A stretch of DNA of 64,000 nt. It comes from Myxococcales bacterium (lineage in GTDB: Bacteria > Myxococcota_A > UBA9042). The stretch lies in contig JBBISH010000010.1 in the NCBI GenBank assembly GCA_037441385.1, positions 25,615 to 89,614 on the forward strand, written 5' to 3'. A program made the position numbers and the translations under genes. Below the pieces are notes generated by a model that did no database searches, had not been told where the DNA came from, and saw nothing but the letters and a program-made list of their open reading frames with translations. Shown one piece after another: positions 23,145-56,659 of this stretch (its first letter is position 1; each line of letters starts with the position of its first letter).

Positions 23145-23278
23145 TCCGCAGGCACATCAGGTGCTCAGGGCGAACGGCGACTCCCGGAAGTTGGGCGGGG
23201 CGAATCCTGGCCAAGCGAGTTTGGGGGTCAGGCGACGGCGCGCCTCCGGCGCACTTTGCGGGGCCCACGAGGTGAATC

Positions 23279-38700: not shown

Positions 38701-39027
38701 GAGGTGATGCTGACGGACGTCGGCTTGGTCGTCGATGTGGCCGGAGACGGTGCCGAGGCCCTGGCGCTGGCCAAGCAGAACGACTATGCCTTGATTCTCA
38801 TGGACATGCAGATGCCAAGATTGGATGGCATCCAGGCCACCATGCAGATTCGCCAGCTTGCGAATCATCGCGAGACCCCGATCCTGGCGATGACGGCCAA
38901 TGCCTTTGCCGAAGACAAAGAGCGCTGCTTTGGCGCCGGCATGAACGCCTTTATCGCCAAGCCGGTGCGGCCCGAAGTCCTCTATGCCACGTTGCTCGAG
39001 TGGTTGGAGCGATCCCCGCCGCCTTGA
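35746..39027 (+). CDS. Hybrid histidine kinase (degenerate PocR-like, 4 PAS, HisKA, HATPase, REC)
   Basis: [44 protein letters not shown] overlap. Confidence 0.92.
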
Positions 39028-39408: not shown

Positions 39409-39540
39409 TACCCGTTCCGTTCGAATCGGATCGAAAACTCGGGCAATTTTTCGGGCCCGAACCGGGGTCCCCGCCTGATTCTCGCTAGTTGAAGGGAGTG
39501 TCAAAAAGGCCTTGCAGGCGCGGATCCGGTGGGGTGTGCA
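39409..39540 (+). mobile_element. 132-bp repeat, diverged full-length copy
   Basis: Gapless match, 3' part diverged. Confidence 0.8.
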
Positions 39541-39577
39541 CGGGTGGGCCGGTCCCACCCGAGGACGGGAGGCAGCG

Positions 39578-42007: not shown

Positions 42008-43429
42008 CTACTTGGCCGGGGCCGGGGCCGCGTCCGCCTTCTTGCCCAGGAACCACTGGTGGTCGGGGCTGGCCAGCACCGCGTCGAGCTTGACTCCCAG
42101 GGCCTTGGCGGCGTCGGCCTTGCCCTTGTCCGCCGAGCCGCTGAACTTCTCGATTAATTCCCGCAGCAGCGGCACGTAGTGGCCGTAGAAATTGCGGGCC
42201 ACCTCGTAGGTGCCGTGCCAGTGCGTGTAGTCGGGCGCCATCATCGCGGCACCGTGGCGGGCGCGGCGACCTTCGTGGTGCCAGATCTCGTACCAGACGT
42301 AGTCGATCATCTGCGAGAAGCCGGGGCCCAGCAACGGCTTGGCGGCGTTGTACAGCTCCAGGCCGGGCTTGCCGAACTTGTCGTTGTACAGGGTCACGCT
42401 GGCGTCGTATTGGGTGTAGAAGCTGTCGGCCCACGCCTCGTTGTGGCAGGCGGTGCACACGTCTTTCATGGCCTTGCGGCGCGCTTCCCAGCCGACCTTG
42501 CCGCCGGGCAGGCCCATCTTGGCATCCGCGACCTCGGGCCGCACCGACAGGACCGGGCGGTTGTTCCAGCTGATGCGCATGCCAATGTCGTGAGTGACGC
42601 CCTGCTTGCGGGTCGCGGACATGTGGCAGGTGGCGCAGGTGGGCGCGGCCGAGTAGTCCTCGCCGACGATCCACTTGGGGGAGTCCAGGTTCATCTTGCC
42701 CACGTTGGCGGCAAAGGCGATGCCGTGCTTGCTCTCTTCGTAGATCTCCTTTTGCGGGTGATCCGGGCCCAGGTGGCACTTGCCGCAGGTGTTGGGGTGG
42801 CGGGCCTGCGCGGCCGAGAAGTCGTGGCGCATGTGGCAGGCCGCGCACGAGCCCTCGCTGCCGTCGGGGTTCAGCCGGCCCACGCCGCTGTTGGGCCACG
42901 AGGCCACGTCGAGCTTGCCGTCCTTGACCTTGACCGTCGAGCCGTGGCACTGCCAGCAACCGTTGACGGCTGCAGCGGAATTGCCGCCGGGGAAGCCTGG
43001 CGTCTTGAAGCCGCGGTTGCCCTCGACCACTTCGGCCAGGGTGTTGTCCAGCGAGCCGATGATCTGCCCGGCCTTGCTGTGGCGCGATCCAGCAAATTCA
43101 GCAACTTCGCGGGCGTGGCAGCGGCTGCAGTCCTTGGGCGTGACCAGCACGGCGATGGTAAAGCCGTTGTGGTCCAGCGCGTCGGCGTCGCTCTTTTCGG
43201 CGCGGTGGCACTCGTAGCAGCCCACGTTGGCGCGGTAGTGCTTGCTCTGGCCCCACTGCTGGTACTGGGCCGGCGAGTCGTCTTTGTGGCAGCCGAGGCA
43301 CTCCTTGGTCTCGGCGCTGATCGAAGTGGGCAGGCCGCTCGTGACGGCCGGGCTGTGCGCTGGCGCCGGCGGGGCGGCGAGGGCAGTGCTGGTCAAACAA
43401 CTCATGAACAATACTAGCAGGGCTCGCAT
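42008..43429 (-). CDS. Octaheme cytochrome c, hydroxylamine oxidoreductase (HAO) family
   Basis: Eight CxxCH (CLGCH, CYECH, CSRCH, CWQCH, CAACH, CGKCH, CATCH, CTACH); GPDHPQ.EIY.ESKHG, HHEGRRAR, PDYTHWHG; signal peptide. Confidence 0.88.
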   Translation of the reverse strand: MRALLVLFMSCLTSTALAAPPAPAHSPAVTSGLPTSISAETKECLGCHKDDSPAQYQQWGQSKHYRANVGCYECHRAEKSDADALDHNGFTIAVLVTPKDCSRCHAREVAEFAGSRHSKAGQIIGSLDNTLAEVVEGNRGFKTPGFPGGNSAAAVNGCWQCHGSTVKVKDGKLDVASWPNSGVGRLNPDGSEGSCAACHMRHDFSAAQARHPNTCGKCHLGPDHPQKEIYEESKHGIAFAANVGKMNLDSPKWIVGEDYSAAPTCATCHMSATRKQGVTHDIGMRISWNNRPVLSVRPEVADAKMGLPGGKVGWEARRKAMKDVCTACHNEAWADSFYTQYDASVTLYNDKFGKPGLELYNAAKPLLGPGFSQMIDYVWYEIWHHEGRRARHGAAMMAPDYTHWHGTYEVARNFYGHYVPLLRELIEKFSGSADKGKADAAKALGVKLDAVLASPDHQWFLGKKADAAPAPAK

Positions 43430-43445
43430 GGTTTCCCTCCTTGGA

Positions 43446-44765
43446 CTAGAAAGCCGTGTTCAGCGTCAGGGCGCCAAAGTGCTCGGTGGTCAGCTCGACG
43501 GTGTCGGCGTACTTCTTGATCGAGCGCATCGCCTCGCCCGGCAGGAACATACCGTAGATCGCGTACAAAGACGCGCCCGGAGCGAATTTCCAGGTGGCGC
43601 GCACGTCCAGCTCCTGGCCCAGATCGGTCTTGGGCTGGACATCCTTGGCGTCGGTCAGCGCCTTGCCGGCCAGGGCGTGGCTGGCAAAGATGTGGAAGTC
43701 CGCGCCCACGCTCAGGTCCTTGAGCGGGCTGGCGGCCACGGTCACCCCAATGTCGCGCAGGCCGCGGTTGGCGGTGTGCTTGGGGATGTTCAAGAACATG
43801 TCCACTTCGCCGTAGTACTTGTGATTGGTGGCGTACAGGGTGTCAAAGGCGTTCTCGGCGTTGCCATCGCCCGACAGTTCGTCGAACACCAGGCCGATCG
43901 TGGGGGTCGCCGCCACCGGCAGGGCATACGCCAACCGCGCACCGGCCATCCATGCGCTGATGTCCTTGGCGCCGGTGTGGCCAAACTGATCATAAAATTC
44001 AGCGGTATAGCTAAGTCCGGCCACCTTGCCGTCGGCGTAGAGGCCCGCGGTGTGGCGCAACTCGTTGGCCGCCGGCACGACGCTGTCGTTCTTGCGGGCC
44101 AGCCACAGCAGCGACACCCGCGCCGCGTCGCTCACGGCGTAGCGTCCGTGCAGGCCACCAAACCAGATGTCGCCCGCCGACACGCCCACGTGGCCATCGG
44201 CGTCGCCCATGTCGCGTTCGGTCAGAACCGTAGCAATCGCACTCACATCCAGCGGACCTTCGTTCCAGCGCAGCCGGGTACCGTCAAAGCGGCGCGCCCG
44301 TTGGGTCCAGTCCACGGCGCCCACCAGCCGCTGGCTGTCCAGGTTGATCTCCTGGCGGCCGGCCTGCAGGGTAAGTTGCGGCATCCCCAGCGGAATCAGG
44401 GCATACGCCTCGTGAATGTCCAGGCCCAGCGCCGAGCTGGCTTGCGTGCCGCCGCCCAGCGGATCGGTCTCTTCGCCCCACACGCGCGTATCCTGCAACC
44501 GCAAGACTAGCTTGGGGCCGCCGGCCCGCTCGGCGGTGACGCCCAGCCGGGCCCGGTGCGACAGCCACTCACGTTCGATGGCGTCGGTGCCTTTGACGTC
44601 TTTGCCACTGTCGAACTGGCCGCGCAGGCGGTACTGTCCGTCAAAGCTGAGCCGCCAATCAGACGACTCGATAGTCGGATGACCATCCGCGAAGACAGCG
44701 CTGGCAAAGGTGGCGTTTGCGGCAAGCGCCAGGAGCAGGAGCCGGGCGTTCTTAGAAGTGTTCAT
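43446..44765 (-). CDS. Alginate-export (AlgE-like) family outer-membrane porin
   Basis: Signal peptide; GQYRLRG, LQDTRVWG, GRQEI..DSQRLVGA.DW...RRFDG, ATNHKYYG.VD, LGQELD; C-terminal Phe. Confidence 0.85.
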   Translation of the reverse strand: MNTSKNARLLLLALAANATFASAVFADGHPTIESSDWRLSFDGQYRLRGQFDSGKDVKGTDAIEREWLSHRARLGVTAERAGGPKLVLRLQDTRVWGEETDPLGGGTQASSALGLDIHEAYALIPLGMPQLTLQAGRQEINLDSQRLVGAVDWTQRARRFDGTRLRWNEGPLDVSAIATVLTERDMGDADGHVGVSAGDIWFGGLHGRYAVSDAARVSLLWLARKNDSVVPAANELRHTAGLYADGKVAGLSYTAEFYDQFGHTGAKDISAWMAGARLAYALPVAATPTIGLVFDELSGDGNAENAFDTLYATNHKYYGEVDMFLNIPKHTANRGLRDIGVTVAASPLKDLSVGADFHIFASHALAGKALTDAKDVQPKTDLGQELDVRATWKFAPGASLYAIYGMFLPGEAMRSIKKYADTVELTTEHFGALTLNTAF

Positions 44766-44914
44766 AAATATCCTTGGTTCTGATTCGACAGAAGCTGCCC
44801 AGCTCTCCCTCCGGGCTACCGGCATGCTCGCGCTGGCGCGCCGCGGAGGCAAGAAGTCAACGGATATCTGACTCCATAGTGTGTCACAGAATTGTCAGAA
44901 GGGGCGCCCGGAAG

Positions 44915-45312: not shown

Positions 45313-48300
45313 ATGCACCGTCCATCGCTGACTTCCATGTTGAGTCTCGTGAACTCCCGTTCACCTCTCAGGGCTTACCTGGCGTTCGTGTGTGCCCTGG
45401 CGTTGGCGGCAAGCCAGGCCGGCTGCGGCGACAACGTAGCCAGCGACGGCACGGGCCAAGGTGCCAAGGCCGACGCCAAGGACGACTCCAGCGTGGGTCT
45501 TTCGGACGCCCAAGGTGACGCAGAAGACGGCGGCACGGGCGATGTCAACAAAAGCGATGGCTTGGAAAGCGATGGCGCCGCCACGGACGGTGCTGCCAGC
45601 GATGGCACTGTCAACGACGGCCTGGTGGGCGATGGCCAGACTGCCGATGAGCAAGATACGGACGCCGCAACGGACGACGCTCAGGCCGACGCGCCTGACC
45701 AACTCGACGGCGACGACGCCAGCGACACCGAAGACGCGGACGACGGCAAGGACGGCGTAGGCCCGCTGCCCGACCTGCCGATCTGGCCGGATACGGCCGT
45801 GGACGATCAAACCCAGCAGCCCGACGAGGCCGTTGCCGATGCCGATGCCGCCGCCCCCAGCGACATCGAGCCCGTGGACGCGACCGTGGCCGACAGCGTA
45901 GACGACGTGGTGCCCCCCGACGCCGCGGCCGATACCAGCGCCAACGACACCACCGGTGCCGATACGACGAGCGATACGGCCGCCCAAGACGTCGGCAGCG
46001 ATGCCAAGCCCTGGGAACCGCCGCCGGCCGAGTGGGAGCCGGTGTGCTTCTACTGCCACGGCGATGCCGCCCTGAAATCCCCGTCGCCGCCTGTGGATAC
46101 CAAGGGTCAAAGCGACCCCAAAGAACATGGCGTGGGTGCGCACGCGTCGCACGTCGGCGTCGCCAACTGGCACAAGACTGTGGCCTGCAACGAGTGCCAC
46201 AAGGTGCCCAAGGTCTTCTTGGACCCCGCGACGCCCACCCACCTCAACGGAGCGACGGATCTGATCTGGGGGCCGCTGGCCAAGCAGGGTGACTACAATT
46301 TTGGCGACCTGGCCTGCAGCAACACCTACTGCCACGGCACCACGCTCAAGGCGGACTTTGGTGGTGAAACCACCGTCCGCAAGCCGACCTGGACCACCCT
46401 GGACGGCAGCCAAGAGGCCTGCGGCAACGCGTGCCACACCAATCCGCCCGGAGGCAACCACCCGCCCGGTAAGGCCTGCCAGCTGTGCCACACCGCCGCC
46501 ATCAAGAGCTACGACTCGGCCACCAAGACCGCGGTCTGGGCCAACGCCAACCTGCACATCGACGGCAAAGTCGACGTGGAATTGGGCGCCACCTGCACGA
46601 GCTGCCACGGCGACCCGGCCACCAAGAACCCCGCGCCGCCGCTGGGCACCAAGGGCGAGACCAAGACCACCGACGTCGCCGTGGGCGCCCACGCGCAACA
46701 CCTGGCCGGCGGCAACTGGCACCGCGCCGTGCAGTGCAACGACTGCCACGTCGTGCCTGTGCAAATCCCCCACGCCAACGGCAGCGTCGAGCTGACCTGG
46801 AGCGCGGTCGCCGTCGCCAGCGGCAGCGTCGCCACCTTTGACGGTCAGACCGCGGCGTGCGCCAACACGTGGTGCCACGGCGGCAATCAAGTGGGCGCCA
46901 AGGCGGGCGGCACCATCAACACCAAGCCCATCTGGAACAAGGTCGACGGCAGCCAGGATGCCTGCGGCACCACTTGCCATACCAACCCGCCCGGCGGCAT
47001 GCACCCCAAGGCCAGCAATTGCGCAGCCTGCCACGGCCCCGTGATCGCCAGCTACGACGCCAACACCGGTGTGGCCAGCTGGGCCAACGCCAACCTGCAC
47101 ATCGACGGCAAGATCGACACCGCCAACCTGACTTGCACCACCTGCCATGGCGACGAAGCGACCAAGAACCCCGCGCCGCCCAAGGGCACCCAGGGCGAGA
47201 CGGCGACCACCACCGCCGCCGTCGGCGCCCACGCCGCCCACTTGGGCGCCAGCACCTGGCACCGCGCCGGCGAGTGCACCGACTGCCACACGCTGCCCAC
47301 CGACCCGATGCACGCCAACGACAAGGTGGAGCTGACCTGGGGCGCGCTGGCCAAGACCAGCGGCGCCAAGCCGGACTTCGACCCCACCAAGCTGACTTGC
47401 AACGCCGCCTACTGCCACGGCGCCACGCTGGAGCCCGCCAAGACCGGCGGCGCGGTGATGCGCCAGCCCACCTGGAACAAGGTCGACGGCAGCCAGGCCG
47501 CTTGTGGCACAACGTGTCACACCAACCCGCCCGGCGCCGGCCACCCCACCAGCACGGCTTGCGGCACCTGCCACGGCGACGTCGTCAAGAGCTACGACCC
47601 GGCCAATGGCCAGACCAACTGGAACAACGCGGCCTTGCACATCGACGGCAAGCTGCAGATCGCCAGCATGGACTGCACCACTTGCCACGGCGACAAGGTG
47701 ACCAACAACCCCGCGCCGCCCAAGGGCACCAAGGGCGAGACCGCTACCACCGCCCGCGCCGTCGGCGCCCACGCCTCGCACTTGACGGCCACGGACTGGC
47801 ACCGCGACACCCAGTGCACCGATTGCCACAGCGTGCCCAAGAGCACCCTGCACAGCGACGGCATCGTGGATCTGGTCTGGGGCAGCGTAGCGCAAACTGG
47901 CGGCGCCCAGACCACTTGGGACACCACCAAGCTGCAATGCTCGGGCAACTACTGCCACGGCGCCACGTTGCTGCCGGCCAAGGTCGGCGGCACCAAGCTG
48001 GCCGCCCCCACCTGGACCACCGTGGACAACAGCCAAGACAAGTGCGGGTCGACCTGCCACACCAACCCGCCCGGCGGCAAGCACGCCCAGGTCGACAACT
48101 GCCAGGCCTGCCACGGCGAAGTCATCAAGACCTGGGACCCGGTTGCCGGCACCGCCACTTGGCAGAACGGCAAGCTCCACGTCGACGGCACCGTCCAGGT
48201 CACCGGCGCCGACTGCACCACCTGCCACGGTGACGCCGCCACCAAGAACCCCGCGCCGCCCAAGGGCACCAAGGGCGAGACCGCCACCACCACCGCCGCC

Positions 48301-51300
48301 GTCGGCGCCCACGCCGCGCACTTGGCGACCAGCACCTGGCACCGGGGCGGCCAGTGCACCGACTGCCACGCCATCCCCACCTCGACCAGCCACGCCGACG
48401 ATAAGATCGACTTTGCCTGGGGTTCGCTGACTCAGACCGGCGGCACCAGCACCAACTTTGACCTGACGGCGCTCAGCTGCACCGGCTCGTACTGCCACGG
48501 CGCCACCCTGGGCCCGGCCAAGAGCGGCGGCAGCATCATGGTCAAGCCGACCTGGAACAAGGTCGACGGCAGCCAGGCCGCTTGTGGCACAACGTGTCAC
48601 ACCAATCCGCCGGGCGGCACTCACTCGCCCAGCACGGCCTGCGCCACCTGCCACGTCGACGTCATCAAGAGCTACGACCCCGCCACCGGCCAGGCCACCT
48701 GGACCAACGCCAACCTGCACGTAGACGGCAAGGTGGAAGTGGCCGGCATGGACTGCACCACCTGCCACGGCGACACCACCACCAAGAACCCCGCGCCGCC
48801 CAAGGGCACCAAGGGCGAGACGGCCACCACCACCCGCGCAGTCGGCGCCCACGCCTCGCACTTGACGGCGACCGATTGGCACCGCGACACGCTCTGCACC
48901 GACTGCCACAGCGTGCCCAGCAGCAACATGCACAGCAACAACGTGGTCGACCTGGCCTGGGGCACCGTCGCCCAGACCGGTGGCGCCAAGACCACTTGGG
49001 ACACCACCAAGCTGCAGTGCTCGGGCAACTACTGCCACGGCGCCACCCTGGCTCCGGCCAAGACCGGCGGCAGCAAGCTGGCCGCGCCCACCTGGACGAC
49101 GGTGGACAACAGTCAGGACAAGTGCGGCTCGACTTGCCACACCAACCCGCCCGGCGGCGGACACGCCCAGGTCGACAACTGCCAGGCCTGCCACGGCGAA
49201 GTCATCAAGGCCTGGAATCCGACCACCGGCGTCGCCACCTGGCAGAACGGCAAGCTCCACGTCGACGGCACCGTCCAGGTCAGCAGCGCCGACTGCACCA
49301 CCTGCCACGGCGACCCGGCCACCAACAACCCCGCGCCGCCCAAGGGCACCAAGGGCGAGACGGCCACCACGGCCGGCGCTGTGGGCGCGCACACCGCGCA
49401 CCTGAGCAGCAGCAGCTGGCACCGCACCGGCCAGTGCACCGATTGTCACGCGGTGCCCAGCTCGGTCAACCACGCCAACAACGTCTTGGATCTGGCTTGG
49501 GGTACGCTGACCCAGACCAGCGGCGCCAACACCAATTTCGAGCCGTCTACGCTGGGCTGCACCGGTTCGTACTGCCACGGCGCCACCCTGCTGCCGGCCA
49601 AGACCGGCGGCACCACCCTGGCCAAGCCGATCTGGAACAAGGTCGACGGCACCCAGGCCGCCTGCGGCTCGACCTGCCACACCAACCCGCCCGGCGGCAG
49701 CCACCCGACCAGCACGGCCTGCGCCACCTGCCACGGCGCCAGCATCAAGACCTTTGACGCCGCCACCGGCCAGGCCACTTGGACCAACGCGAGCTTGCAC
49801 GTCAACGGCAAGGTCGAGCTGTCGCAACTGAACTGCACCAGCTGCCACGGTGACCCAGTCACCGGCGCCGCCAACCCGCCGCTGGGCACGCAAGGGCAGA
49901 CCCAGACGACGCAAAAGGCCGTGGGCGCCCACCAGGCCCACTTGGGCAGTGGCGGCTGGCACCGCGCCGGCCAGTGCGCCGACTGCCACACCGTGCCCAC
50001 GTCGATGACTCACACCGACGGCAAGGTCGACTTGGCCTGGAGCACCCTGGCCCAGACCGGCACGGCCAACCCAACGTGGGACACCAACGCCGCCACCTGC
50101 AGCGGCAACTACTGCCACGGCAGCACCCTGGCGGCGGCCAAGCCGGGCGGACAGATCCAGCGCACGCCCACCTGGACCAAGGTCGATGGCACGCAAGACG
50201 CATGTGGCACAACGTGTCACACCAACCCGCCCGGCGGCAGCCACCCGCAGAGCAGCACCTGCAACCTGTGCCACGACGCCGTGATCACCAGCTTTGACGC
50301 CGCCAAGAACACCGCGGTGTGGAAGAACCCGCTGCTGCACATCAACGGCAACGTCGAGATCAAGACGCTGGACTGCACTACGTGCCACGGCGACGCGACC
50401 AGCAAGAACCCGGCGCCGCCCGTGGACACGCTGGGCAACACCGCCACCACCGCCGCTGGCGTGGGCGCGCACGCTCAGCACCTGGGCACCAGCACCTGGC
50501 ACCGCGCCGGTCAGTGCGCCGACTGCCACAGCGTGCCCACCTCGAACCTGCACGCCAACGGCGCGCTCGACCTGACCTGGGGCAGCGTGCCGCTCAGCGA
50601 CGCCGCCAAGCCGGCCTTTGACCAGCCGACGTTGACTTGCACCGGCTCGTACTGCCACGGCACCACCCTGATGGGCGCCAAGAGCGGCGGCGGCACCAAC
50701 CGCCAGCCGATTTGGAATGTGGTCAACGGTACTTACGACGCCTGCGGCAGCACCTGCCACACCAACCCGCCCGGCGGCACCCACCCGGCCAGCTCGGCCT
50801 GCGCCACCTGCCACCCGGCCACCATCGCCGCCTACAACGCCACCACCAACGTCGCCACCTTTAAGGACGCCACGTTGCACATCAATGGCACGGTCGACGT
50901 GGTGAACCTGACCTGCACGACCTGCCACGGCGACGCGGCCAGCAACAACCCCGCGCCACCGCTGGGCACCAAGGGCGAGACCGCCACCACCACCAAGGCC
51001 GTGGGCGCCCACACTCAGCACGGCGGCACCAGCACTTGGCACCGCGACGTGGCCTGCACCGACTGCCATGCCGTCCCCGCCGCCATGACCCACAGCAACG
51101 GCAGCGTGGATCTGAGCTGGAGCAGCGTGGCCAGCGCCGACTTGGCGGTCCCGGCCTGGAACGGCACGACCACCACCTGCTCGGGCAACTACTGCCACGG
51201 CGCCACTTTGCTGGGCGCCAAGAGCGGCGGCACCGTGATGCGCACGCCCAACTGGACCAAGGTCGATGGCACCCAGGACGCGTGCGGCGTCACCTGTCAC

Positions 51301-54300
51301 ACCCTGCCACCTGGCGGCACGCACCCGCAAAATACCCAGTGCGCCACCTGCCATACCACCGTGATCGCCAGCAACGACCCCGCGACCACCCCGGTCAAGT
51401 GGGCCGACCGCAAGCTCCACATCGACGGCAAGATCGACGTGGGCACCCTGACTTGCACCAGCTGCCACGGCGACAAGGTGAGCAACAACCCGGCGCCGCC
51501 CGTCGGCACCAAGGGCGAGACGGCCACCACCACCGTCGCCGTCGGCGCGCACGCCCAGCACCTGGGCGCCAGCAGCTCGCACCGCGCCGGCCAGTGCACC
51601 GACTGCCACGTGGTCCCCGTCTCGCTGCAGCACGGCAACGGCACCGCCGACATCGCCTGGGGCACGCTGCCCAAGACGGCCAGCCAGACGCCCACGTGGG
51701 ACAAGACCACGGCCACTTGCGCCAGCAACTACTGCCACGGCACCAGCCTGGAACCGGCCAAGGCGGGCGGCGCCATCATGCGCACACCGGCGTGGACCAA
51801 GGTCGACGGCAGCCAGGGCAAGTGCGGCAGCACCTGCCACACCAACCCGCCCGGCGGCCCGCACCCCACCAGCGACAAGTGCAGCATGTGCCACGGCGCC
51901 GTCATCAGCGGCTACGACGCGGTGGCGGGCACGGCGACCTGGAAGGATCCGGGCCTGCACGTGGACGGCACCCTGCAGCTGACCACGCTGACCTGCACCA
52001 GCTGCCACGGTACCGCCAGCACCAACGACCCGATGCCGCCCAAGGGCACCCTGGGCGAGACGGCCACCACCACCAAGGCCGTGGGCGCGCACAAGCAGCA
52101 CATGGGCTCCAGCGCCTGGCACCGCGCCGGCGTGTGCACCGACTGCCACACCGTCCCCACCTCGCAGACCCACACCAACAACGTGGTGGATCTGACGTGG
52201 GGCAGCGTTGCCACTTCGGGCACGGCCACGCCGGCTTGGAACACCACCACCGCTACCTGCTCGGGCAACTGGTGCCACGGCGGCAAGCTGCCGGGCGCCA
52301 ACGCCGGCGGCACGGTGATGCAGACGCCCAAGTGGACCCAGGTCGACGGCAGCCAGGCGGCTTGTGGCACAACGTGTCACACCAACCCGCCCGGCGGCAC
52401 GCACCCGCAGAGCAACAACTGCAACCTGTGCCACGCTGGCGTGATCACCAGCTACGACGCCACCAACAAGACGGCGGTGTGGAAGAATGCCGACTTGCAC
52501 GTCAACGGCAGCGTCGACGTGGTGGGCATGAGCTGCACCAGCTGCCACGGCGACGCCGTAGCCAACGACCCGTCGCCGCCGCTGGGCACCAAGGGCGAGA
52601 CCCTGACCACCCAAGTCGCCGTCGGCGCCCACGCCCAGCACATGGGCCCGTCGACCTGGCGCGGCGCGGTGCTCTGCAGCGATTGCCACACGGTGCCCAC
52701 GTCGATGACCCACACCAACGGCACCGTCGACGTGACCTTCAGCGGCCTGGCCGTAGCCAACGCCGCGAGCCCCACCTGGAGCAAGAGCACCGTGACCTGC
52801 AGCAACGCCTACTGCCACGGCGCCACCCTGCTTCCGGCGGCCACCGGCGGCACGGTCAACCACAACCCGCTGTGGACCAAGGTGGACGGCAGCCAAGACG
52901 CCTGCGGCAGCACCTGCCACACCAACCCGCCCGGCGGCACGCACCCGCCCAACACCGCCTGCAACCTGTGCCACAATCAGGTGATCAGCGGCTACGACGC
53001 GGTGGCCAAGACGGCGACCTGGGCCGACCCCACCTTGCACATCAACGGCAAGGTCGAGGTCAAGACCCTGACCTGCACCAGCTGCCACGGCGACGCCGTC
53101 GCCAACAACCCAGCGCCGCCGCTGGGCACCAAGGGCGAGACCAAGACCAGCGACGCCGCCGTGGGCGCCCACAGCCAGCACTTGACCGCCAGCACCTGGC
53201 ACCGCAACGGCCAGTGCACCGATTGCCACAGCGTGCCCGCCTCGGTTGGCCACTCCAATGGCAACGTCGACTTTAGCTGGGGCGGTACGTCGGCGCTCAA
53301 CGGCGCCAACCCGCAGTTCGTCGCCAGCAACTTGACCTGCACCGGCGCCTACTGCCACGGCAACACGCTGTACGGGCCCAAGACCGGCGGCACCGTGGCG
53401 CGCACGCCGGTGTGGACCACCGTCAACGGCAGCTGGGACGCCTGTGGCACCACGTGTCACACGCTGCCGCCGGCGACGCCGCACCCGCAAAACGAGAACT
53501 GCGCGCAGTGCCACGGCGCGGTGATCAAGTCGATCGTCATGGGCACACCGCCCACGGTGGTGTGGCAGGATGCCCAGTTGCACATCGACGGCAAGATCGA
53601 CACCGGCACCGTGACCTGCACTAGCTGCCACGGCGACAAGGTGGCCAACAACCCGGCGCCGCCCATTGGCAGCAAGGGCGAGACCCAGACCACCCAGAAG
53701 GCCGTGGGCGCTCACGCCGCGCACTTGGGCGTCAACTCGACCTGGCACCGCGACGGCCAGTGCACCGACTGCCACACGGTCCCGGTCTCGATGACCCACG
53801 CCAACGGCACCAGCGACCTGAACTGGAGCGCGCCCAGCAACGCCGGCAACCTGACGCCGAGCTACGCGATCGACGCCAAGTGCAGCAACAACTGGTGCCA
53901 CGGCTCGGGCCTGGGCGCGGCCAAGACGGGCGGCACCATCAACCGCACACCGCTGTGGACCCAGGTCGACGGCACGCAGGACGCCTGCGGCACCACGTGT
54001 CACACCAACCCGCCCGGCGGCAGCCACGTGGCCCACACCGACTGCAGCATCTGCCACACCGCGGTGGTCGCGGCCTTCAACCCGGCCAACAACGCCACCA
54101 CCTGGAAGGACCGCACGCTGCACGTCAATGGCGTCAAAGAGTCGAACAAGTACCACGACTTGAGCGGCTGGACCACGCCGAAGTTTGGCACCAACCACCA
54201 CGGCAGCAACTACTTTGTGCGCAATCAGCAGCGCGACGAGCACAACGTGAGTTGCACGCAGTGCCACGGCGCCGACCTGCTGGGCGGCACGGTGGGCGTG

Positions 54301-55011
54301 TCGTGCGCCAACAGCAGCTGCCACGGCGGCGACTGGAAGGCCTGCGACTTCTGCCACGGCGTCAAGGGCAGCAGCAACGCCCCGCCCGTCGGCGTGGCCA
54401 ACGAGCAAGCTGCGGCCACGAACACCCTTGGCGTGGGTCGCCACACGGCACACTTGACGGCATCGCCCACCCACGTGGCCTTTGCCTGCACCACCTGCCA
54501 CACCGTCCCGGCCGCGGGCGACATCGCCCACGCCATGCAGTACGTGTACTCGGCGGATCTGACCACCGCCGGCCACCACGGCGACGTCACCTTTACTGCC
54601 GGTGCGGCCAACGGCATGACGTTCAACGTGGCCGCCACCACGGGCACGCCGGCCACCGCCCGCGGCACCTGCGTGGGCACCTGCCACAGCAACGGCCGCG
54701 GCGGCGCCCCGGTGGTGACCCCGTACTGGGCCGGCGGCACCTGGACCAAGGGCAGCTGCGGCACCTGCCACGCCGCCGCGCCCACCACGGGCGAGCACAG
54801 CAAGCACGCGCAAGAGGGCTTGGGCTGCGTCAATTGCCACCCGTCGGCCGCGGCTTCGACCCACTTGAACGGCACCCGCGACGTGTTGACCACCATCGTG
54901 CCGCCTACGGGCTCGGGCTCGGTCACCTCGGCGGCCGCCAGCGGCAACTGCACCACCCGCCGCTGCAGCGGCACCTGCCACGGCATGAACCACAACAGCT
55001 TGTGCTGGTAG
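45313..55011 (+). CDS. Giant multiheme c-type cytochrome lipoprotein (CxxxxCH/CxxCH repeat family), 83 heme motifs
   Basis: GGAG RBS; lipobox QAGC; acidic linker; 15 modules each CxxCH-CxxCH-CxxxxCH-CxxxCH-CxxCH plus 8 C-terminal motifs; alternative start at 45337. Confidence 0.92.
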   Translation: MHRPSLTSMLSLVNSRSPLRAYLAFVCALALAASQAGCGDNVASDGTGQGAKADAKDDSSVGLSDAQGDAEDGGTGDVNKSDGLESDGAATDGAASDGTVNDGLVGDGQTADEQDTDAATDDAQADAPDQLDGDDASDTEDADDGKDGVGPLPDLPIWPDTAVDDQTQQPDEAVADADAAAPSDIEPVDATVADSVDDVVPPDAAADTSANDTTGADTTSDTAAQDVGSDAKPWEPPPAEWEPVCFYCHGDAALKSPSPPVDTKGQSDPKEHGVGAHASHVGVANWHKTVACNECHKVPKVFLDPATPTHLNGATDLIWGPLAKQGDYNFGDLACSNTYCHGTTLKADFGGETTVRKPTWTTLDGSQEACGNACHTNPPGGNHPPGKACQLCHTAAIKSYDSATKTAVWANANLHIDGKVDVELGATCTSCHGDPATKNPAPPLGTKGETKTTDVAVGAHAQHLAGGNWHRAVQCNDCHVVPVQIPHANGSVELTWSAVAVASGSVATFDGQTAACANTWCHGGNQVGAKAGGTINTKPIWNKVDGSQDACGTTCHTNPPGGMHPKASNCAACHGPVIASYDANTGVASWANANLHIDGKIDTANLTCTTCHGDEATKNPAPPKGTQGETATTTAAVGAHAAHLGASTWHRAGECTDCHTLPTDPMHANDKVELTWGALAKTSGAKPDFDPTKLTCNAAYCHGATLEPAKTGGAVMRQPTWNKVDGSQAACGTTCHTNPPGAGHPTSTACGTCHGDVVKSYDPANGQTNWNNAALHIDGKLQIASMDCTTCHGDKVTNNPAPPKGTKGETATTARAVGAHASHLTATDWHRDTQCTDCHSVPKSTLHSDGIVDLVWGSVAQTGGAQTTWDTTKLQCSGNYCHGATLLPAKVGGTKLAAPTWTTVDNSQDKCGSTCHTNPPGGKHAQVDNCQACHGEVIKTWDPVAGTATWQNGKLHVDGTVQVTGADCTTCHGDAATKNPAPPKGTKGETATTTAAVGAHAAHLATSTWHRGGQCTDCHAIPTSTSHADDKIDFAWGSLTQTGGTSTNFDLTALSCTGSYCHGATLGPAKSGGSIMVKPTWNKVDGSQAACGTTCHTNPPGGTHSPSTACATCHVDVIKSYDPATGQATWTNANLHVDGKVEVAGMDCTTCHGDTTTKNPAPPKGTKGETATTTRAVGAHASHLTATDWHRDTLCTDCHSVPSSNMHSNNVVDLAWGTVAQTGGAKTTWDTTKLQCSGNYCHGATLAPAKTGGSKLAAPTWTTVDNSQDKCGSTCHTNPPGGGHAQVDNCQACHGEVIKAWNPTTGVATWQNGKLHVDGTVQVSSADCTTCHGDPATNNPAPPKGTKGETATTAGAVGAHTAHLSSSSWHRTGQCTDCHAVPSSVNHANNVLDLAWGTLTQTSGANTNFEPSTLGCTGSYCHGATLLPAKTGGTTLAKPIWNKVDGTQAACGSTCHTNPPGGSHPTSTACATCHGASIKTFDAATGQATWTNASLHVNGKVELSQLNCTSCHGDPVTGAANPPLGTQGQTQTTQKAVGAHQAHLGSGGWHRAGQCADCHTVPTSMTHTDGKVDLAWSTLAQTGTANPTWDTNAATCSGNYCHGSTLAAAKPGGQIQRTPTWTKVDGTQDACGTTCHTNPPGGSHPQSSTCNLCHDAVITSFDAAKNTAVWKNPLLHINGNVEIKTLDCTTCHGDATSKNPAPPVDTLGNTATTAAGVGAHAQHLGTSTWHRAGQCADCHSVPTSNLHANGALDLTWGSVPLSDAAKPAFDQPTLTCTGSYCHGTTLMGAKSGGGTNRQPIWNVVNGTYDACGSTCHTNPPGGTHPASSACATCHPATIAAYNATTNVATFKDATLHINGTVDVVNLTCTTCHGDAASNNPAPPLGTKGETATTTKAVGAHTQHGGTSTWHRDVACTDCHAVPAAMTHSNGSVDLSWSSVASADLAVPAWNGTTTTCSGNYCHGATLLGAKSGGTVMRTPNWTKVDGTQDACGVTCHTLPPGGTHPQNTQCATCHTTVIASNDPATTPVKWADRKLHIDGKIDVGTLTCTSCHGDKVSNNPAPPVGTKGETATTTVAVGAHAQHLGASSSHRAGQCTDCHVVPVSLQHGNGTADIAWGTLPKTASQTPTWDKTTATCASNYCHGTSLEPAKAGGAIMRTPAWTKVDGSQGKCGSTCHTNPPGGPHPTSDKCSMCHGAVISGYDAVAGTATWKDPGLHVDGTLQLTTLTCTSCHGTASTNDPMPPKGTLGETATTTKAVGAHKQHMGSSAWHRAGVCTDCHTVPTSQTHTNNVVDLTWGSVATSGTATPAWNTTTATCSGNWCHGGKLPGANAGGTVMQTPKWTQVDGSQAACGTTCHTNPPGGTHPQSNNCNLCHAGVITSYDATNKTAVWKNADLHVNGSVDVVGMSCTSCHGDAVANDPSPPLGTKGETLTTQVAVGAHAQHMGPSTWRGAVLCSDCHTVPTSMTHTNGTVDVTFSGLAVANAASPTWSKSTVTCSNAYCHGATLLPAATGGTVNHNPLWTKVDGSQDACGSTCHTNPPGGTHPPNTACNLCHNQVISGYDAVAKTATWADPTLHINGKVEVKTLTCTSCHGDAVANNPAPPLGTKGETKTSDAAVGAHSQHLTASTWHRNGQCTDCHSVPASVGHSNGNVDFSWGGTSALNGANPQFVASNLTCTGAYCHGNTLYGPKTGGTVARTPVWTTVNGSWDACGTTCHTLPPATPHPQNENCAQCHGAVIKSIVMGTPPTVVWQDAQLHIDGKIDTGTVTCTSCHGDKVANNPAPPIGSKGETQTTQKAVGAHAAHLGVNSTWHRDGQCTDCHTVPVSMTHANGTSDLNWSAPSNAGNLTPSYAIDAKCSNNWCHGSGLGAAKTGGTINRTPLWTQVDGTQDACGTTCHTNPPGGSHVAHTDCSICHTAVVAAFNPANNATTWKDRTLHVNGVKESNKYHDLSGWTTPKFGTNHHGSNYFVRNQQRDEHNVSCTQCHGADLLGGTVGVSCANSSCHGGDWKACDFCHGVKGSSNAPPVGVANEQAAATNTLGVGRHTAHLTASPTHVAFACTTCHTVPAAGDIAHAMQYVYSADLTTAGHHGDVTFTAGAANGMTFNVAATTGTPATARGTCVGTCHSNGRGGAPVVTPYWAGGTWTKGSCGTCHAAAPTTGEHSKHAQEGLGCVNCHPSAAASTHLNGTRDVLTTIVPPTGSGSVTSAAASGNCTTRRCSGTCHGMNHNSLCW
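46045..54135 (+). repeat. 15 tandem ~540-bp coding repeats
   Basis: First CxxCH of modules 2-14 recurs every 540 bp exactly (46594 to 53074); module 1 at 46045, module 15 at 53617. Confidence 0.95.
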
Positions 55012-55125: not shown

Positions 55126-55746
55126 CTAGCTGGGCTGACGCCGCGGCAAGGTCGCCGCCACGTACGGCAGCGCCGCCTGCGACGAGGCCTGCAGTACCGG
55201 GTTCGCAAACAGGCGGTCGCGATAGGCCGCCATGAAGTCAGGCACTTCCACGCCTTCGGTCTGCGCGTAGTGCAACGCCACCGCCGCCGCTAGGTCGCCC
55301 AGGGTGATGCTCTCGCCGCACACAAAAGGCCGGCCATCGGCCAGCACGGCCTGCCACACCCCAAATGCCTTGCCCATGGTCGCGACGGTAGCGGCGCGGA
55401 CCTCGGGTTGCTTGTTCCAGAAGAACTTGCCAATCGGATCGAGCAGGTACAGGTCACCCAAGCGATCGAGGTGACGGGCGTGCCGCTCCAGCGAAGGCGG
55501 CAACAGCACCCGCGGGCCAAGCTCCTCAAGGTACTCCAGAATCGACGTGGACTCGAAGATCGCCGAGCCATCGTCCAGTTCGAGCACGGGCATCTTGCCA
55601 AACGGATTGAGGCGCAAGTAGTCGGGCGTCTTCAGCCCGCCGGCCAGCGCATCTACGACCTGCAAAGGGATGGAATCGCCGCGCAAACCCAGGCCAATGG
55701 CCGCCTTGCGCGAGTAAGAGGACAACGGGTGGTAGTGGAGCTTCAT
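55126..55746 (-). CDS. Glutathione S-transferase family protein
   Basis: LNPFGKMPVL, IFESTSILEYL, FVCGESITLGD. Confidence 0.9.
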   Translation of the reverse strand: MKLHYHPLSSYSRKAAIGLGLRGDSIPLQVVDALAGGLKTPDYLRLNPFGKMPVLELDDGSAIFESTSILEYLEELGPRVLLPPSLERHARHLDRLGDLYLLDPIGKFFWNKQPEVRAATVATMGKAFGVWQAVLADGRPFVCGESITLGDLAAAVALHYAQTEGVEVPDFMAAYRDRLFANPVLQASSQAALPYVAATLPRRQPS

Positions 55747-55815
55747 GCGCACATCCGACCCCGGCACTGGGGATTTGTCAAGCCGGGGTCGGAGGTGCGA
55801 GCGCCCGCCGAGCGG

Positions 55816-56283
55816 CTACTTGCCGTGGCAGGCCTTGCACTTGTCGATCGCCGCCTTCTCTGGGATCCCCTTGGCCACGGACTTGTGGCAGTCCAGGCAA
55901 GTCTTGTGGAAGATCACGGTGCCCTTGTCGAAGTCGTCGCCCTTGGCAACCGCCAGCACCGGCGCCTTTTTGCCGCCGAATTCCTTTTGCGGTTGGCCGT
56001 CAGCCACGTGGCAGTCGCCGCAGCCCTTGACATCTTTGACACTTTTGGGCTCACCCTTTTCGGTGTGGTGGCATGTCTTGCAGCCGATCGCTTGGCCCTT
56101 GGCGTCTCTGAACTCCCCGGCGTGCTTGGCGTGGGGGAATTTGACCGCGCCCTTTTTGCCCTTGATCAGGTCGATCTTGATTTCGGCTTTGTCCTTAGGC
56201 ACTTCGGTCGCGAGCGCCACACCCAGGAACGAGCCGAGACCAAAAAGAATCGCGACCAACCATGCGCTGCGCTTGTTCCACAT
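55816..56283 (-). CDS. Tetraheme cytochrome c3 (class III)
   Basis: GGAGG RBS, signal peptide, VKFPHAKH, CKTCHH, CGDCH, FHKTCLDCH, CKACH. Confidence 0.88.
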   Translation of the reverse strand: MWNKRSAWLVAILFGLGSFLGVALATEVPKDKAEIKIDLIKGKKGAVKFPHAKHAGEFRDAKGQAIGCKTCHHTEKGEPKSVKDVKGCGDCHVADGQPQKEFGGKKAPVLAVAKGDDFDKGTVIFHKTCLDCHKSVAKGIPEKAAIDKCKACHGK

Positions 56284-56659
56284 GACCTGAACCTCCGGCG
56301 CGTTTGGGCGCCTGCCTGCCAAGAAAGGGCCCACTTGGGACCCCGCGGGCGGTGTTGAACGGGCCGCCGCGCTTGCTTTCGACAACGCGGCCGGCACGGC
56401 GCGGATTCAGGGCGGCAGGCAGGCAACACAGCAAGAGTACGGCTGGTTGTGACGCAAGCGTGGCGAACAGCGACGCAGGTCAAGTGCCGCGCGATTGGGC
56501 TTGCTCAGCGAGTGCGGCGCGGCTATCCTGCAAGGGTCGCGGGGACTTCCCACCCTGCGGCGCCCCCCAAAGTACTCGTCTATCCCGCCCAAGCCCCCAC
56601 TGCGCCTGCCTATTGCGGCAGCTTGTCGACTTCTCGCCCTCTACCCGCCGAGAAACGCC

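What the first reader, a model, noticed from the sequence alone, without database searches (positions are those of the whole stretch)
45313..55011. 83-motif lipoprotein cytochrome built from 15 tandem pentaheme modules: candidate single-chain electron wire
Seen: a ~3232-aa ORF with a lipobox, ~200-aa acidic tether, 15 modules of ~180 aa (540-bp period) and an 8-motif cap. Each module has the fixed order CxxCH, CxxCH, CxxxxCH, CxxxCH, CxxCH. Hand count gives 50 CxxCH + 17 CxxxCH + 16 CxxxxCH = 83. Most modules also keep about six extra His (GAHxxH, WH, post-heme-2 H, GGxH, LHxxG), enough for bis-His ligation of five hemes. Known: CxxxxCH...CxxCH repeat cytochromes occur in Geobacter and Anaeromyxobacter and are poorly characterised. 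Inference: a surface-anchored, genetically concatenated heme chain for long-range electron transfer or storage, whose length is set by repeat number. A CxxCH-only scan would miss about 40% of the sites.
Basis: partly seen in the sequence, partly recalled or inferred. Interest (0 to 1): 0.9.

Follow-up and report, generated by a model that had tools for sequence, protein, structure and literature searches.

The report
Giant 83-haem lipoprotein cytochrome, known family
This is a real gene for a huge lipid-anchored protein with 83 haem-binding sites arranged in 15 near-identical-length five-haem units, probably an electron-carrying rod outside the cytoplasm, but it belongs to an already named, never tested family whose members range up to about 150 sites.

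Summary
The + strand ORF 45313..55011 encodes 3232 aa with 50 CxxCH, 17 CxxxCH and 16 CxxxxCH motifs, 83 in all. Shuffles of the same protein give 1.6 on average. The parts are a lipoprotein signal (Cys38), a 200-aa Asp-rich tether, 15 modules of 180 aa in the order 2-2-4-3-2, and an 8-motif cap. Each module has exactly 10 Cys and 11 His, and five non-motif His are invariant.

It is not an assembly artefact. Module DNA is only 62-83% alike. Two other genomes carry the same 15 modules, orthologous module by module, and dN/dS is about 0.23.

It is a member of NCBIfam TIGR01904 (16 domains, E 1.7e-84). The module profile hits 2216 protein clusters holding 3 to 31 modules. Among 223 stored relatives, 19 have 83 or more motifs, and the largest has 151. 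Papers already report 87 and 116 motifs per polypeptide. This scan has also met this family on other DNA.

No relative has a solved structure. Gene neighbours are not conserved. Function (a lipid-tethered haem wire or electron store) remains inference. Verdict: a new, large member of a known kind, of moderate to low interest.

The parts
45313..45423 (+). Signal peptide, aa 1-37 (Arg-containing n-region, hydrophobic AYLAFVCALALAA)
   Evidence: Translation. The same layout is seen in 6 of 7 orthologous loci. No signal-peptide predictor was available.
45424..45426 (+). Lipobox Cys38 (SQAG-C, followed by GDN)
   Evidence: Orthologues have LAGC, LAAC, MTGC, SFGC and ILGC followed by GD.
45427..46020 (+). 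Asp-rich low-complexity tether (aa 39-236; 206 aa to the first haem motif; D+E 58, K+R 5; pI about 4)
   Evidence: No Pfam family (protein 4). Acidic tethers of 136-206 aa in the 5 of 7 loci where the script measured one.
46021..46569 (+). Module 1 (183 aa, 5 motifs; the most divergent, 42-48% identical to the others)
46570..47109 (+). Module 2 (180 aa)
47110..47649 (+). Module 3 (180 aa; 68% identical to M5, 62% to M7)
47650..48189 (+). Module 4 (180 aa; 85% identical to M6)
48190..48729 (+). Module 5 (180 aa; 73% identical to M7)
48730..49269 (+). Module 6 (180 aa)
49270..49809 (+). Module 7 (180 aa)
49810..50349 (+). Module 8 (180 aa)
50350..50889 (+). Module 9 (180 aa)
50890..51429 (+). 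Module 10 (180 aa)
51430..51969 (+). Module 11 (180 aa)
51970..52509 (+). Module 12 (180 aa)
52510..53049 (+). Module 13 (180 aa; the only module with WR in place of WH)
53050..53592 (+). Module 14 (181 aa)
53593..54132 (+). Module 15 (180 aa)
54133..55008 (+). C-terminal cap, 292 aa, 8 motifs (order 2,4,2,2,3,2,2,3), 22 His. A non-repeat end domain shared with short paralogues.
   Evidence: It is 59-60% identical to the ends of short proteins in the same genome and its genus. It lies at the C-terminus in all 16 stored proteins that match it strongly.
55009..55011 (+). Stop codon

Best explanation
The gene encodes a c-type multihaem lipoprotein of the CxxxxCH/CxxCH (TIGR01904) family, from an uncultured, probably myxobacterial, groundwater or subsurface bacterium. 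The model is as follows. The protein is exported by Sec, lipidated at Cys38, and loaded with haem in the periplasm by the cell's cytochrome c maturation enzymes. It then hangs from a membrane on a roughly 200-residue Asp-rich flexible tether. Behind the tether lie 15 five-haem modules joined without linkers, ending in a distinct 8-haem cap. Each haem is probably bis-His ligated, because each module has five invariant non-motif His and no conserved Met. With one haem per 36 residues and a fixed module length, the modules probably stack into one continuous haem chain. Electrons would hop along that chain between the cell envelope and a distant acceptor or donor such as a mineral, humic matter or a partner cell. 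Up to 83 electrons could also be stored. Reach is set genetically by the number of modules. Shown here: the sequence anatomy, family membership, purifying selection, and variation of module number among relatives. Inferred: lipidation, haem occupancy, bis-His ligation, chain continuity, cellular location and direction of electron flow.
For: Anatomy and motif counts. TIGR01904 matches in 16 stretches, 277.6 bits against a cut-off of 27. Pfam Cytochrome_C7 scores 192.8 bits. The five invariant distal-ligand candidates H41, H44, H68, H145 and H177 are kept in 84 of 84 two-module rows from 7 genes. Module length is 180 aa in 13 of 15 modules, and spacings of 179-185 recur in the orthologues. Module order is orthologous position by position in two genus-mates: the diagonal is 82-94% against L010 and 71-87% against L009, while off-diagonal values are mostly 40-65%, rising to 84% for the duplicated pairs M4/M6 and M5/M7. 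dN/dS is 0.22 and 0.24 over 2704 codons. A hydrophobic leader ending in Cys-Gly-Asp occurs in 6 of 7 orthologous loci. The genome has four Cytochrom_C_asm (haem-lyase-type) genes. A length series shares the same cap: 2 modules (L015, same genome), then 3, 4, 5, 9, 11, 12, 13, 15 and 19 modules. The module profile finds 2216 representative proteins with 3-31 stretches. Authors of genome surveys propose long-distance transfer or electron storage for such long-tail cytochromes (PMC11492766, PMC7399161, PMC2330069; passages read).
Against: No member of the family has been studied experimentally in anything I found. There is no solved relative by sequence. The better AlphaFold2 model of two modules reached only pLDDT 68 and pTM 0.46, and dips below 50 at the module junction. 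It gave no structural match, so chain continuity across junctions is untested. The lipobox has Gln at -3. Neighbouring genes are conserved in only 1 of 6 other loci, so no partner, porin or secretion route is indicated. A 377-kDa haem-loaded protein would need an export route across the outer membrane that I did not identify. One module (M13) lacks the WH His. Pfam PF09698 itself stays under its gathering score.
Confidence: 0.6

Rival explanations
1. It is an electron store (capacitor) and not a wire. The protein stays in the periplasm or on the inner face of the outer membrane. It buffers up to 83 electrons when acceptors are scarce, and transport over distance is not its role.
For: The Anaeromyxobacter genome paper proposes this role for its 40-motif cytochrome (PMC2330069, passages read), and the Desulfuromonadia survey proposes it too (PMC11492766). 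No outer-membrane export partner is conserved beside the gene. Many bis-His haems would suit storage.
Against: A long flexible acidic tether plus a distinct conserved end cap suggests a directional, extended object rather than a store. Strict conservation of module order and length is not needed for mere capacity. Neither point is decisive.
Confidence: 0.25
2. It is the extracellular arm of a porin-cytochrome conduit formed with the two genes transcribed divergently upstream: the Alginate_exp-type beta-barrel at 43449-44894 and the 8-haem cytochrome at 42011-43459.
For: The barrel and a multihaem cytochrome lie directly upstream. The same pair lies upstream of the orthologue in L010.
Against: The pair is absent beside the orthologues in 5 of 6 other loci. 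L009 has phosphatases. L011 and L014 have fumarase. L012 and L013 have unrelated genes. The 8-haem protein is a hydroxylamine-oxidoreductase-family enzyme by sequence (4qo5 at E 1.9e-54, HAO at E about 1e-22). It is not an MtrA- or OmaB-like conduit cytochrome.
Confidence: 0.05
3. It is an assembly artefact or a decaying pseudogene, with repeats collapsed or expanded by short-read assembly.
For: The genome is a 221-contig metagenome bin. No single Logan contig spans the array. No RNA evidence exists.
Against: Module DNA copies are only 62-83% identical over 300 nt, so short reads can place them. Exact Logan pieces of run X1 bridge the tether/M1 border and 5 of 14 module junctions among the listed rows, though X1 may be the source sample. 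Two other genomes (L009, L010) have the same 15 modules and 83 motifs, and the cluster of P0004 was seen on 6 contigs. The 9.7-kb frame is intact, dN/dS is 0.22-0.24, and all 166 motif Cys are kept.
Confidence: 0.02

Closest known systems
CxxxxCH/CxxCH-domain c-type cytochromes (NCBIfam TIGR01904; Pfam PF09698 GSu_C4xC__C2xCH), named from Geobacter and common in Anaeromyxobacter. Example: the 2081-aa protein of Anaeromyxobacter sp. Fw109-5 (P0031).
   Same: The domain model matches 16 times. P0031 is 39% identical over 60% of the query. It has a lipobox-like leader and 11-12 five-motif modules spaced about 166-170 aa apart. Both have tandem arrays and high haem density.
   Different: In the window's branch the fourth motif of each module is CxxxCH (order 2,2,4,3,2), whereas the wider family has CxxCH there (2,2,4,2,2). 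The window protein has more modules (15) and a long acidic tether. Its specific 8-motif cap matches strongly in 16 of the 223 stored proteins. Pfam's short model stays under threshold. No family member has been characterised in what I found.
Giant multihaem cytochromes of genome surveys: Desulfuromonadia 'cytochromome' (PMC11492766), aquifer bioanode genomes (PMC7399161), peat metagenomes (preprint 10.64898/2026.05.27.727921)
   Same: Single polypeptides with tens of CX2-4CH motifs, predicted to be extracellular or of unknown location. They are discussed as wires or capacitors. The maxima reported are 87, 53 and 116 motifs (passages read).
   Different: Those papers do not describe this 180-aa five-motif module, its cap or the myxobacterial branch, in the passages I read. 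I did not read their supplements.
Polymers of c7-type trihaem domains in Geobacter sulfurreducens (dodecahaem GSU1996 type; recalled, not fetched)
   Same: Works alike in principle: multihaem domains concatenated in one chain to give an elongated haem array. Pfam Cytochrome_C7 matches motifs 3-5 of each module.
   Different: A trihaem unit, 12 haems, periplasmic, no lipid anchor (recalled). The module profile finds no solved c7 protein at E up to 1.
Cytochrome nanowires OmcS / OmcE / OmcZ (recalled; mentioned in PMC11492766)
   Same: A long, insulated chain of closely spaced bis-His haems for electron transfer over tens of nanometres and more.
   Different: Nanowires reach length by non-covalent polymerisation of 4-8-haem subunits. 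Here length would be covalent and fixed by gene length. There is no sequence or fold match.
MtrC/OmcA-type decahaem outer-membrane lipoproteins
   Same: A lipid-anchored multihaem protein proposed to contact external acceptors. There is a weak whole-protein Pfam PF22113 score (36.6 bits against a cut-off of 30, with no single stretch passing).
   Different: No PF22113 hit for a single module. There is no conserved porin and periplasmic decahaem partner. Size and repeat design differ.

Membership tests
TIGR01904 CxxxxCH/CxxCH domain c-type cytochrome (NCBIfam) | Score above the curated cut-off (27 bits) | tested here: met
   Whole protein 277.6 bits, E 1.7e-84, 16 stretches. Single module 45.5 bits. 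The cap scores 24.1 bits, just under the cut-off.
TIGR01904 CxxxxCH/CxxCH domain c-type cytochrome (NCBIfam) | A CxxxxCH motif followed by a CxxCH motif in each domain copy | tested here: met
   In all 15 modules CxxxxCH is followed 35 aa later by CxxxCH and 54 aa later by CxxCH. The intervening CxxxCH is a variant of this branch; relatives have CxxCH there.
TIGR01904 CxxxxCH/CxxCH domain c-type cytochrome (NCBIfam) | Occurs in several tandem copies per protein | tested here: met
   16 stretches here. 3-31 stretches in the 150 listed relatives.
Pfam PF09698 GSu_C4xC__C2xCH | Score above the gathering threshold (21.7 bits) | tested here: not met
   17.1 bits for the whole protein, 18.8 for a module, 21.1 for the cap. 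Many relatives carry the precomputed PF09698 label.
Pfam PF14522 Cytochrome_C7 and related | Score above the gathering threshold (24.8 bits) | tested here: met
   192.8 bits for the whole protein. 30.8 bits for one module, over residues 95-155, which are motifs 3-5.
c7-type trihaem cytochromes with solved structures | Detectable similarity to a solved c7 or c7-polymer structure | tested here: not met
   The profile search of the PDB found only cytochrome c-553 at E 0.22. Foldseek and VIA-align found no match, but the model was of middling quality.
Bacterial lipoprotein | Signal peptide ending in a lipobox with an invariant Cys | tested here: inconclusive
   A hydrophobic leader then [QAG/LAG/LAA/MTG/SFG/ILG]-C-G-D in 6 of 7 orthologous loci, read by eye and by regex. 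Gln at -3 in the window is atypical. No dedicated predictor was available.
Porin-cytochrome conduit (Mtr / Pcc type) | Conserved adjacent genes for an outer-membrane barrel and a periplasmic multihaem cytochrome | tested here: not met
   A barrel and an 8-haem gene lie upstream here and in L010 only. They are absent in L009, L011, L012, L013 and L014. The 8-haem protein is of the HAO family.
Cytochrome nanowire subunits (OmcS/OmcE/OmcZ) | Sequence or fold similarity to a solved filament subunit | tested here: not met
   No PDB sequence hit and no structural hit.
c-type multihaem cytochrome (general) | Covalent haem at each CXnCH site | not testable with these tools
   Needs expression and mass spectrometry. 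The genome does encode four Cytochrom_C_asm-family proteins.

The most novel reading that the evidence does not exclude
The branch that shares this tether and 8-haem cap is a genetically encoded length series of single-chain haem rods. The same genome has a 2-module version and this 15-module version, and relatives have 3 to 19 modules. Module number would act as a ruler for how far from the membrane electrons are delivered. At roughly 1 nm per haem, the 15-module protein would reach some 60-100 nm. That is far beyond the width of the periplasm, and it would be achieved without polymerisation, a covalent alternative to cytochrome nanowires. (The 1 nm figure is scaled from the 27-haem, 350-Angstrom model quoted in PMC11492766, and is an inference.) The Asp-rich tether might in addition bind cations or mineral surfaces.
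Probability: 0.25. Interest if true: 0.6.

Novelty: new member of a known kind. Interest (0 to 1): 0.3.

Why it matters
If the modules form one continuous haem chain, proteins of this branch would be defined-length, single-molecule wires of 2 to 19 or more identical units. That makes them a natural test set for how conductance and redox behaviour scale with length, and a template for bioelectronic materials. Ecologically, they would mark uncultured groundwater Myxococcota as candidates for extracellular electron transfer. The family, its tandem design and even larger members are already in databases and surveys, so the gene adds an example and does not establish a new principle.

Tried and rejected
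Structure:
- The first AlphaFold2 run on two modules with 14 rows gave pLDDT 39.9 and was unusable.
- The second run with 84 rows gave pLDDT 68.4 and pTM 0.46.
- Foldseek against the PDB gave 0 matches at E <= 0.001.
- VIA-align against 48,161 chains gave 0 matches at Z >= 2.
- The model carries no haem and is mostly coil, so these blanks say little.
- PDB sequence searches with the module profile and with the cap found nothing useful.

Expression and assembly:
- No RNA holder was listed for the stretch.
- Logan contigs do not span the array. The 'joints' listed there have short sides of 20-33 letters, which the tool warns are typical of repeats or other organisms, so I did not read them as shorter alleles.
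- Tandem Repeats Finder missed the 540-bp period because it exceeds the tool's 500-bp limit.

Context:
- Consensus promoter and terminator scans at both gene ends found nothing.
- A porin-cytochrome operon reading was rejected for lack of synteny.
- The opposite-strand 3233-aa ORF was rejected as a GC3 mirror frame.
- The Pfam Pcf11_C hit is a Cys/His-pattern coincidence.
- My lipobox regex over the 223 relatives (182 hits) is too loose to count as evidence.
- I did not run complex prediction, because no binding claim is made.

Literature:
- Searches for a characterised member or for this module found surveys only.
- I read passages, not whole papers, and no supplements.

Taxonomy:
- It rests on names attached to homologues, Atlas cluster taxa and earlier unchecked notes. 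It does not rest on a marker-gene tree.
Full report
**The gene.** The window has two ORFs of over 3200 codons on opposite strands at 45.1-55.1 kb. The + strand frame translates to a Cys/His-rich cytochrome. The - strand frame translates to Gly/Ala/Val/Arg-rich sequence without one haem motif. Third-position G+C is 0.92 in the + frame, in a genome of 66% G+C. Only the + strand gene is real. Its first ATG (45313) is followed by a positively charged stretch, a hydrophobic stretch and the sequence SQAG-C-GDN. The protein is 3232 aa and the stop ends at 55011.

**The counts.** A regex count gives 50 CxxCH, 17 CxxxCH and 16 CxxxxCH, 83 in all. A thousand shuffles of the same protein give 1.6 on average and at most 6. 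Of 170 Cys, 166 sit in motifs. The rest are C27 in the leader, C38 in the lipobox and two in the last 20 residues.

**The modules.** The motifs fall into 15 units with the fixed order 2,2,4,3,2 and internal spacings of 47, 41, 35 and 19 aa, then 38 aa to the next unit. Thirteen units are exactly 180 aa, one is 181 and the first is 183. Each unit has exactly 10 Cys and 11 or 12 His. Besides the five motif His, H41 and H44 (GAHxxH), H68, H145 (GGxH) and H177 (LHxxG) are invariant in the 15 modules. They are also invariant in all 84 two-module rows taken from seven orthologous genes. The WH His is kept in at least 90%. Met is sparse and unconserved. Five invariant spare His for five haems fits bis-His ligation. 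This is an inference from sequence.

**The tether and cap.** Between Cys38 and the first motif lie 206 residues with 58 Asp+Glu and 5 Lys+Arg. This region matches no Pfam family. After module 15 comes a 292-aa non-repeat cap with eight motifs and 22 His. The apoprotein is 326 kDa, or about 377 kDa with 83 haems.

**Is the array real?**
- Modules are 42-68% identical as protein, except M4/M6 (85%) and M5/M7 (73%).
- As DNA, copies are 62-83% identical over 300 nt at a 540-bp spacing. These are old repeats that short reads can resolve.
- Two other genomes of the same genus-level group carry genes with the same 15 modules and 83 motifs (L009, L010).
- Every window module has its best match at the same position in those genes: 82-94% to L010 and 71-87% to L009. 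Most other positions score 40-65%, and the duplicated pairs M4/M6 and M5/M7 reach 84%. The array is therefore stable and is not being homogenised.
- dN/dS over 2704 aligned module codons is 0.22 and 0.24.
- Logan contigs of run X1 cover all 30 bins. Among the listed rows, exact pieces bridge the tether/M1 border and 5 of 14 module junctions. No piece spans the array, and X1 may be the source sample.
- L001 and L010 gave identical ORF tables, and I count them once.

**How the array grew.** Against an 11-module orthologue (L011), the ends correspond: M1 to 1, M2 to 2, M10 to 5, M11 to 6, M12 to 8, M13 to 9, M14 to 10 and M15 to 11. The middle modules M3-M9 have no one-to-one partners. Within the window M3, M5 and M7 resemble each other, as do M4 and M6. 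This points to internal duplications of a two-module (1080-bp) unit.

**Family.**
- NCBIfam TIGR01904 (CxxxxCH/CxxCH domain c-type cytochrome) matches in 16 stretches at E 1.7e-84, and a single module scores 45.5 bits against a cut-off of 27.
- Pfam gives Cytochrome_C7 over motifs 3-5 of each module. Its short PF09698 model stays just under threshold.
- A length-restricted homologue search returned 98 proteins of 1777-5656 aa. Many are labelled by their sources as CxxxxCH/CxxCH proteins of Anaeromyxobacter, Myxococcota, Myxococcales or 'Deltaproteobacteria'.
- A profile of the 15 modules, run over 1.84 billion representative proteins, found 2216 proteins at E <= 0.001 and 597 at E <= 1e-30. 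The 150 listed have 3 to 31 matched stretches.
- Among the 223 relatives then held, 19 have 83 or more CX2-4CH motifs and 7 have 100 or more. The largest, P0007 (5264 aa), has 151 motifs in about 30 modules spaced about 172 aa apart. These 223 were chosen by score and length and are not a random sample.
- Most relatives have the order 2,2,4,2,2. The order 2,2,4,3,2 marks the window's own branch, which holds 3, 4, 5, 9, 11, 12, 13, 15 and 19 modules.
- The cap is specific to that branch. The 16 stored proteins that match it strongly all have it at the C-terminus, at lengths from 627 to 3795 aa.
- The window's own genome also encodes a protein with two modules plus the cap (L015, 17 motifs). It has a further lipobox-bearing array that is cut by a contig end (L017).
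- Anaeromyxobacter sp. Fw109-5, an isolate, encodes an 11-12-module relative with a lipobox-like leader (P0031).

**Structure.** No solved structure resembles the module or the cap by sequence. AlphaFold2 on two modules failed with 14 rows (pLDDT 40). It reached pLDDT 68 and pTM 0.46 with 84 rows, mostly coil with short helices at the motifs and a hairpin after motif 5, and dips below 50 at the junction. Neither Foldseek nor VIA-align found a match. Whether the haem chain runs unbroken from module to module, the crux of the wire idea, therefore stays untested. The absence of any linker and the fixed 38-39-aa spacing between the last motif of one module and the first of the next are the only support.

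**Context.** The gene stands alone. Its upstream neighbour is divergent and its downstream neighbour convergent.
- Upstream lie an Alginate_exp-type beta-barrel and an 8-haem cytochrome.
- Downstream lie a glutathione S-transferase and a tetrahaem c3.
- This layout recurs only in L010. The five other orthologous loci have phosphatases, fumarase, PEP carboxykinase and other unrelated genes.
- The 8-haem protein belongs to the hydroxylamine oxidoreductase family.

I therefore reject a porin-cytochrome operon. The genome has four Cytochrom_C_asm-family genes, so haem attachment machinery is present. The cap query found a match in 19 of 41 genomes of the own-plus-relatives set. Giant orthologues with ORFs of 2477 aa or more occur in 7 of those 41.

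**Organism.** The genome is a 6.6-Mb, 221-contig bin, 91% complete. Ser/Thr kinase, FHA and other genes in the window fit a myxobacterium. So do the source names of homologues, the Atlas clusters whose commonest phylum is Myxococcota, and earlier notes of this scan (unchecked). Runs holding related sequence are labelled subsurface, groundwater, freshwater and wastewater metagenomes. Only X1 holds most of the stretch.

**What is in print.** I read passages only.
- The Anaeromyxobacter dehalogenans genome paper noted a cytochrome with 40 haem-binding motifs and proposed a capacitor role (PMC2330069).
- The Desulfuromonadia survey reports a tail up to 87 motifs per polypeptide and names storage and long-distance transfer as possible reasons (PMC11492766).
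- An aquifer study reports up to 53 motifs (PMC7399161).
- A peat preprint reports 3 to 116 motifs (10.64898/2026.05.27.727921).
- A RefSeq-wide scan mentions neighbourhoods with over a hundred motifs (PMC11475568).

None of my five searches turned up an experimental study of a TIGR01904 protein or a description of this five-motif module. This scan has met the family several times on other DNA and judged it ordinary.

**Verdict.** The protein is a large member of a named but untested family, not a unique object. The most likely mechanism is a lipid-tethered, bis-His haem chain whose reach is set by module number, with electron storage as the main rival. Both remain inference. The features worth keeping are the very regular five-haem module with five invariant distal His, the shared tether-and-cap frame that accepts 2 to 19 modules, and the existence of a cultured relative in which the idea can be tested.

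Noticed in passing
window 42011-43459 (-) and 43449-44894 (-): An 8-haem cytochrome of the hydroxylamine oxidoreductase family lies directly downstream of an Alginate_exp-type outer-membrane beta-barrel gene, overlapping it by a few bases. Its best solved match is 4qo5 'hypothetical multiheme protein' at E 1.9e-54, and HAO scores E about 1e-22. The same pair sits beside the orthologue in L010 only. An HAO-like enzyme coupled to a barrel is unexplained.
   Followed up: partly
window 55129-55815 (-) and 55819-56406 (-): A glutathione S-transferase and a tetrahaem class III (c3) cytochrome with a predicted membrane or signal segment lie convergent to the giant gene. The pair is also present in L010.
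   Followed up: no
protein P0007 (5264 aa, from a metagenome contig of 44478 bases): A relative with 151 CX2-4CH motifs in about 30 five-motif modules and a lipobox-like leader. That is more than the largest counts I saw in print (87 and 116). P0017, P0020, P0036, P0015, P0005 and P0019 also exceed 100.
   Followed up: partly
L015:4182-6704 (+), L017:3725-5899 (+), L016:3488-6307 (-) and L016:826-2256 (-) (same genome, other contigs): The same genome holds shorter paralogues. One has two modules plus the same cap (17 motifs). One is an array of at least 3.6 modules cut by the contig end (18 motifs). Two are other multihaem cytochromes with 26 and 13 motifs.
   Followed up: partly
own genome: G000:C17:36614-37228, C43:2020-2610, C20:203-784, C26:13260-13718: Four Cytochrom_C_asm-family genes, one in a 1081-aa open frame and one in a 789-aa frame. 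Several haem lyases could reflect dedicated handling of CxxxCH and CxxxxCH sites. This was not examined.
   Followed up: no
window 35599-39024 (+) and 39479-41797 (+): Two large hybrid histidine kinases with several PAS domains and receiver domains lie just upstream of the barrel/HAO pair. They are possible redox-sensing regulators of the region.
   Followed up: no
window 23276-25129 (+): A 618-aa protein with Dictyostelium-type CTDC repeats (Pfam PF00526, E 7e-23) in a bacterial genome.
   Followed up: no
L014 (G024:C164) N-terminus of the 11-module orthologue: The only one of 7 orthologous loci where no hydrophobic leader plus Cys-Gly-Asp is evident upstream of the tether. The gene also runs off the contig end.
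   Followed up: no
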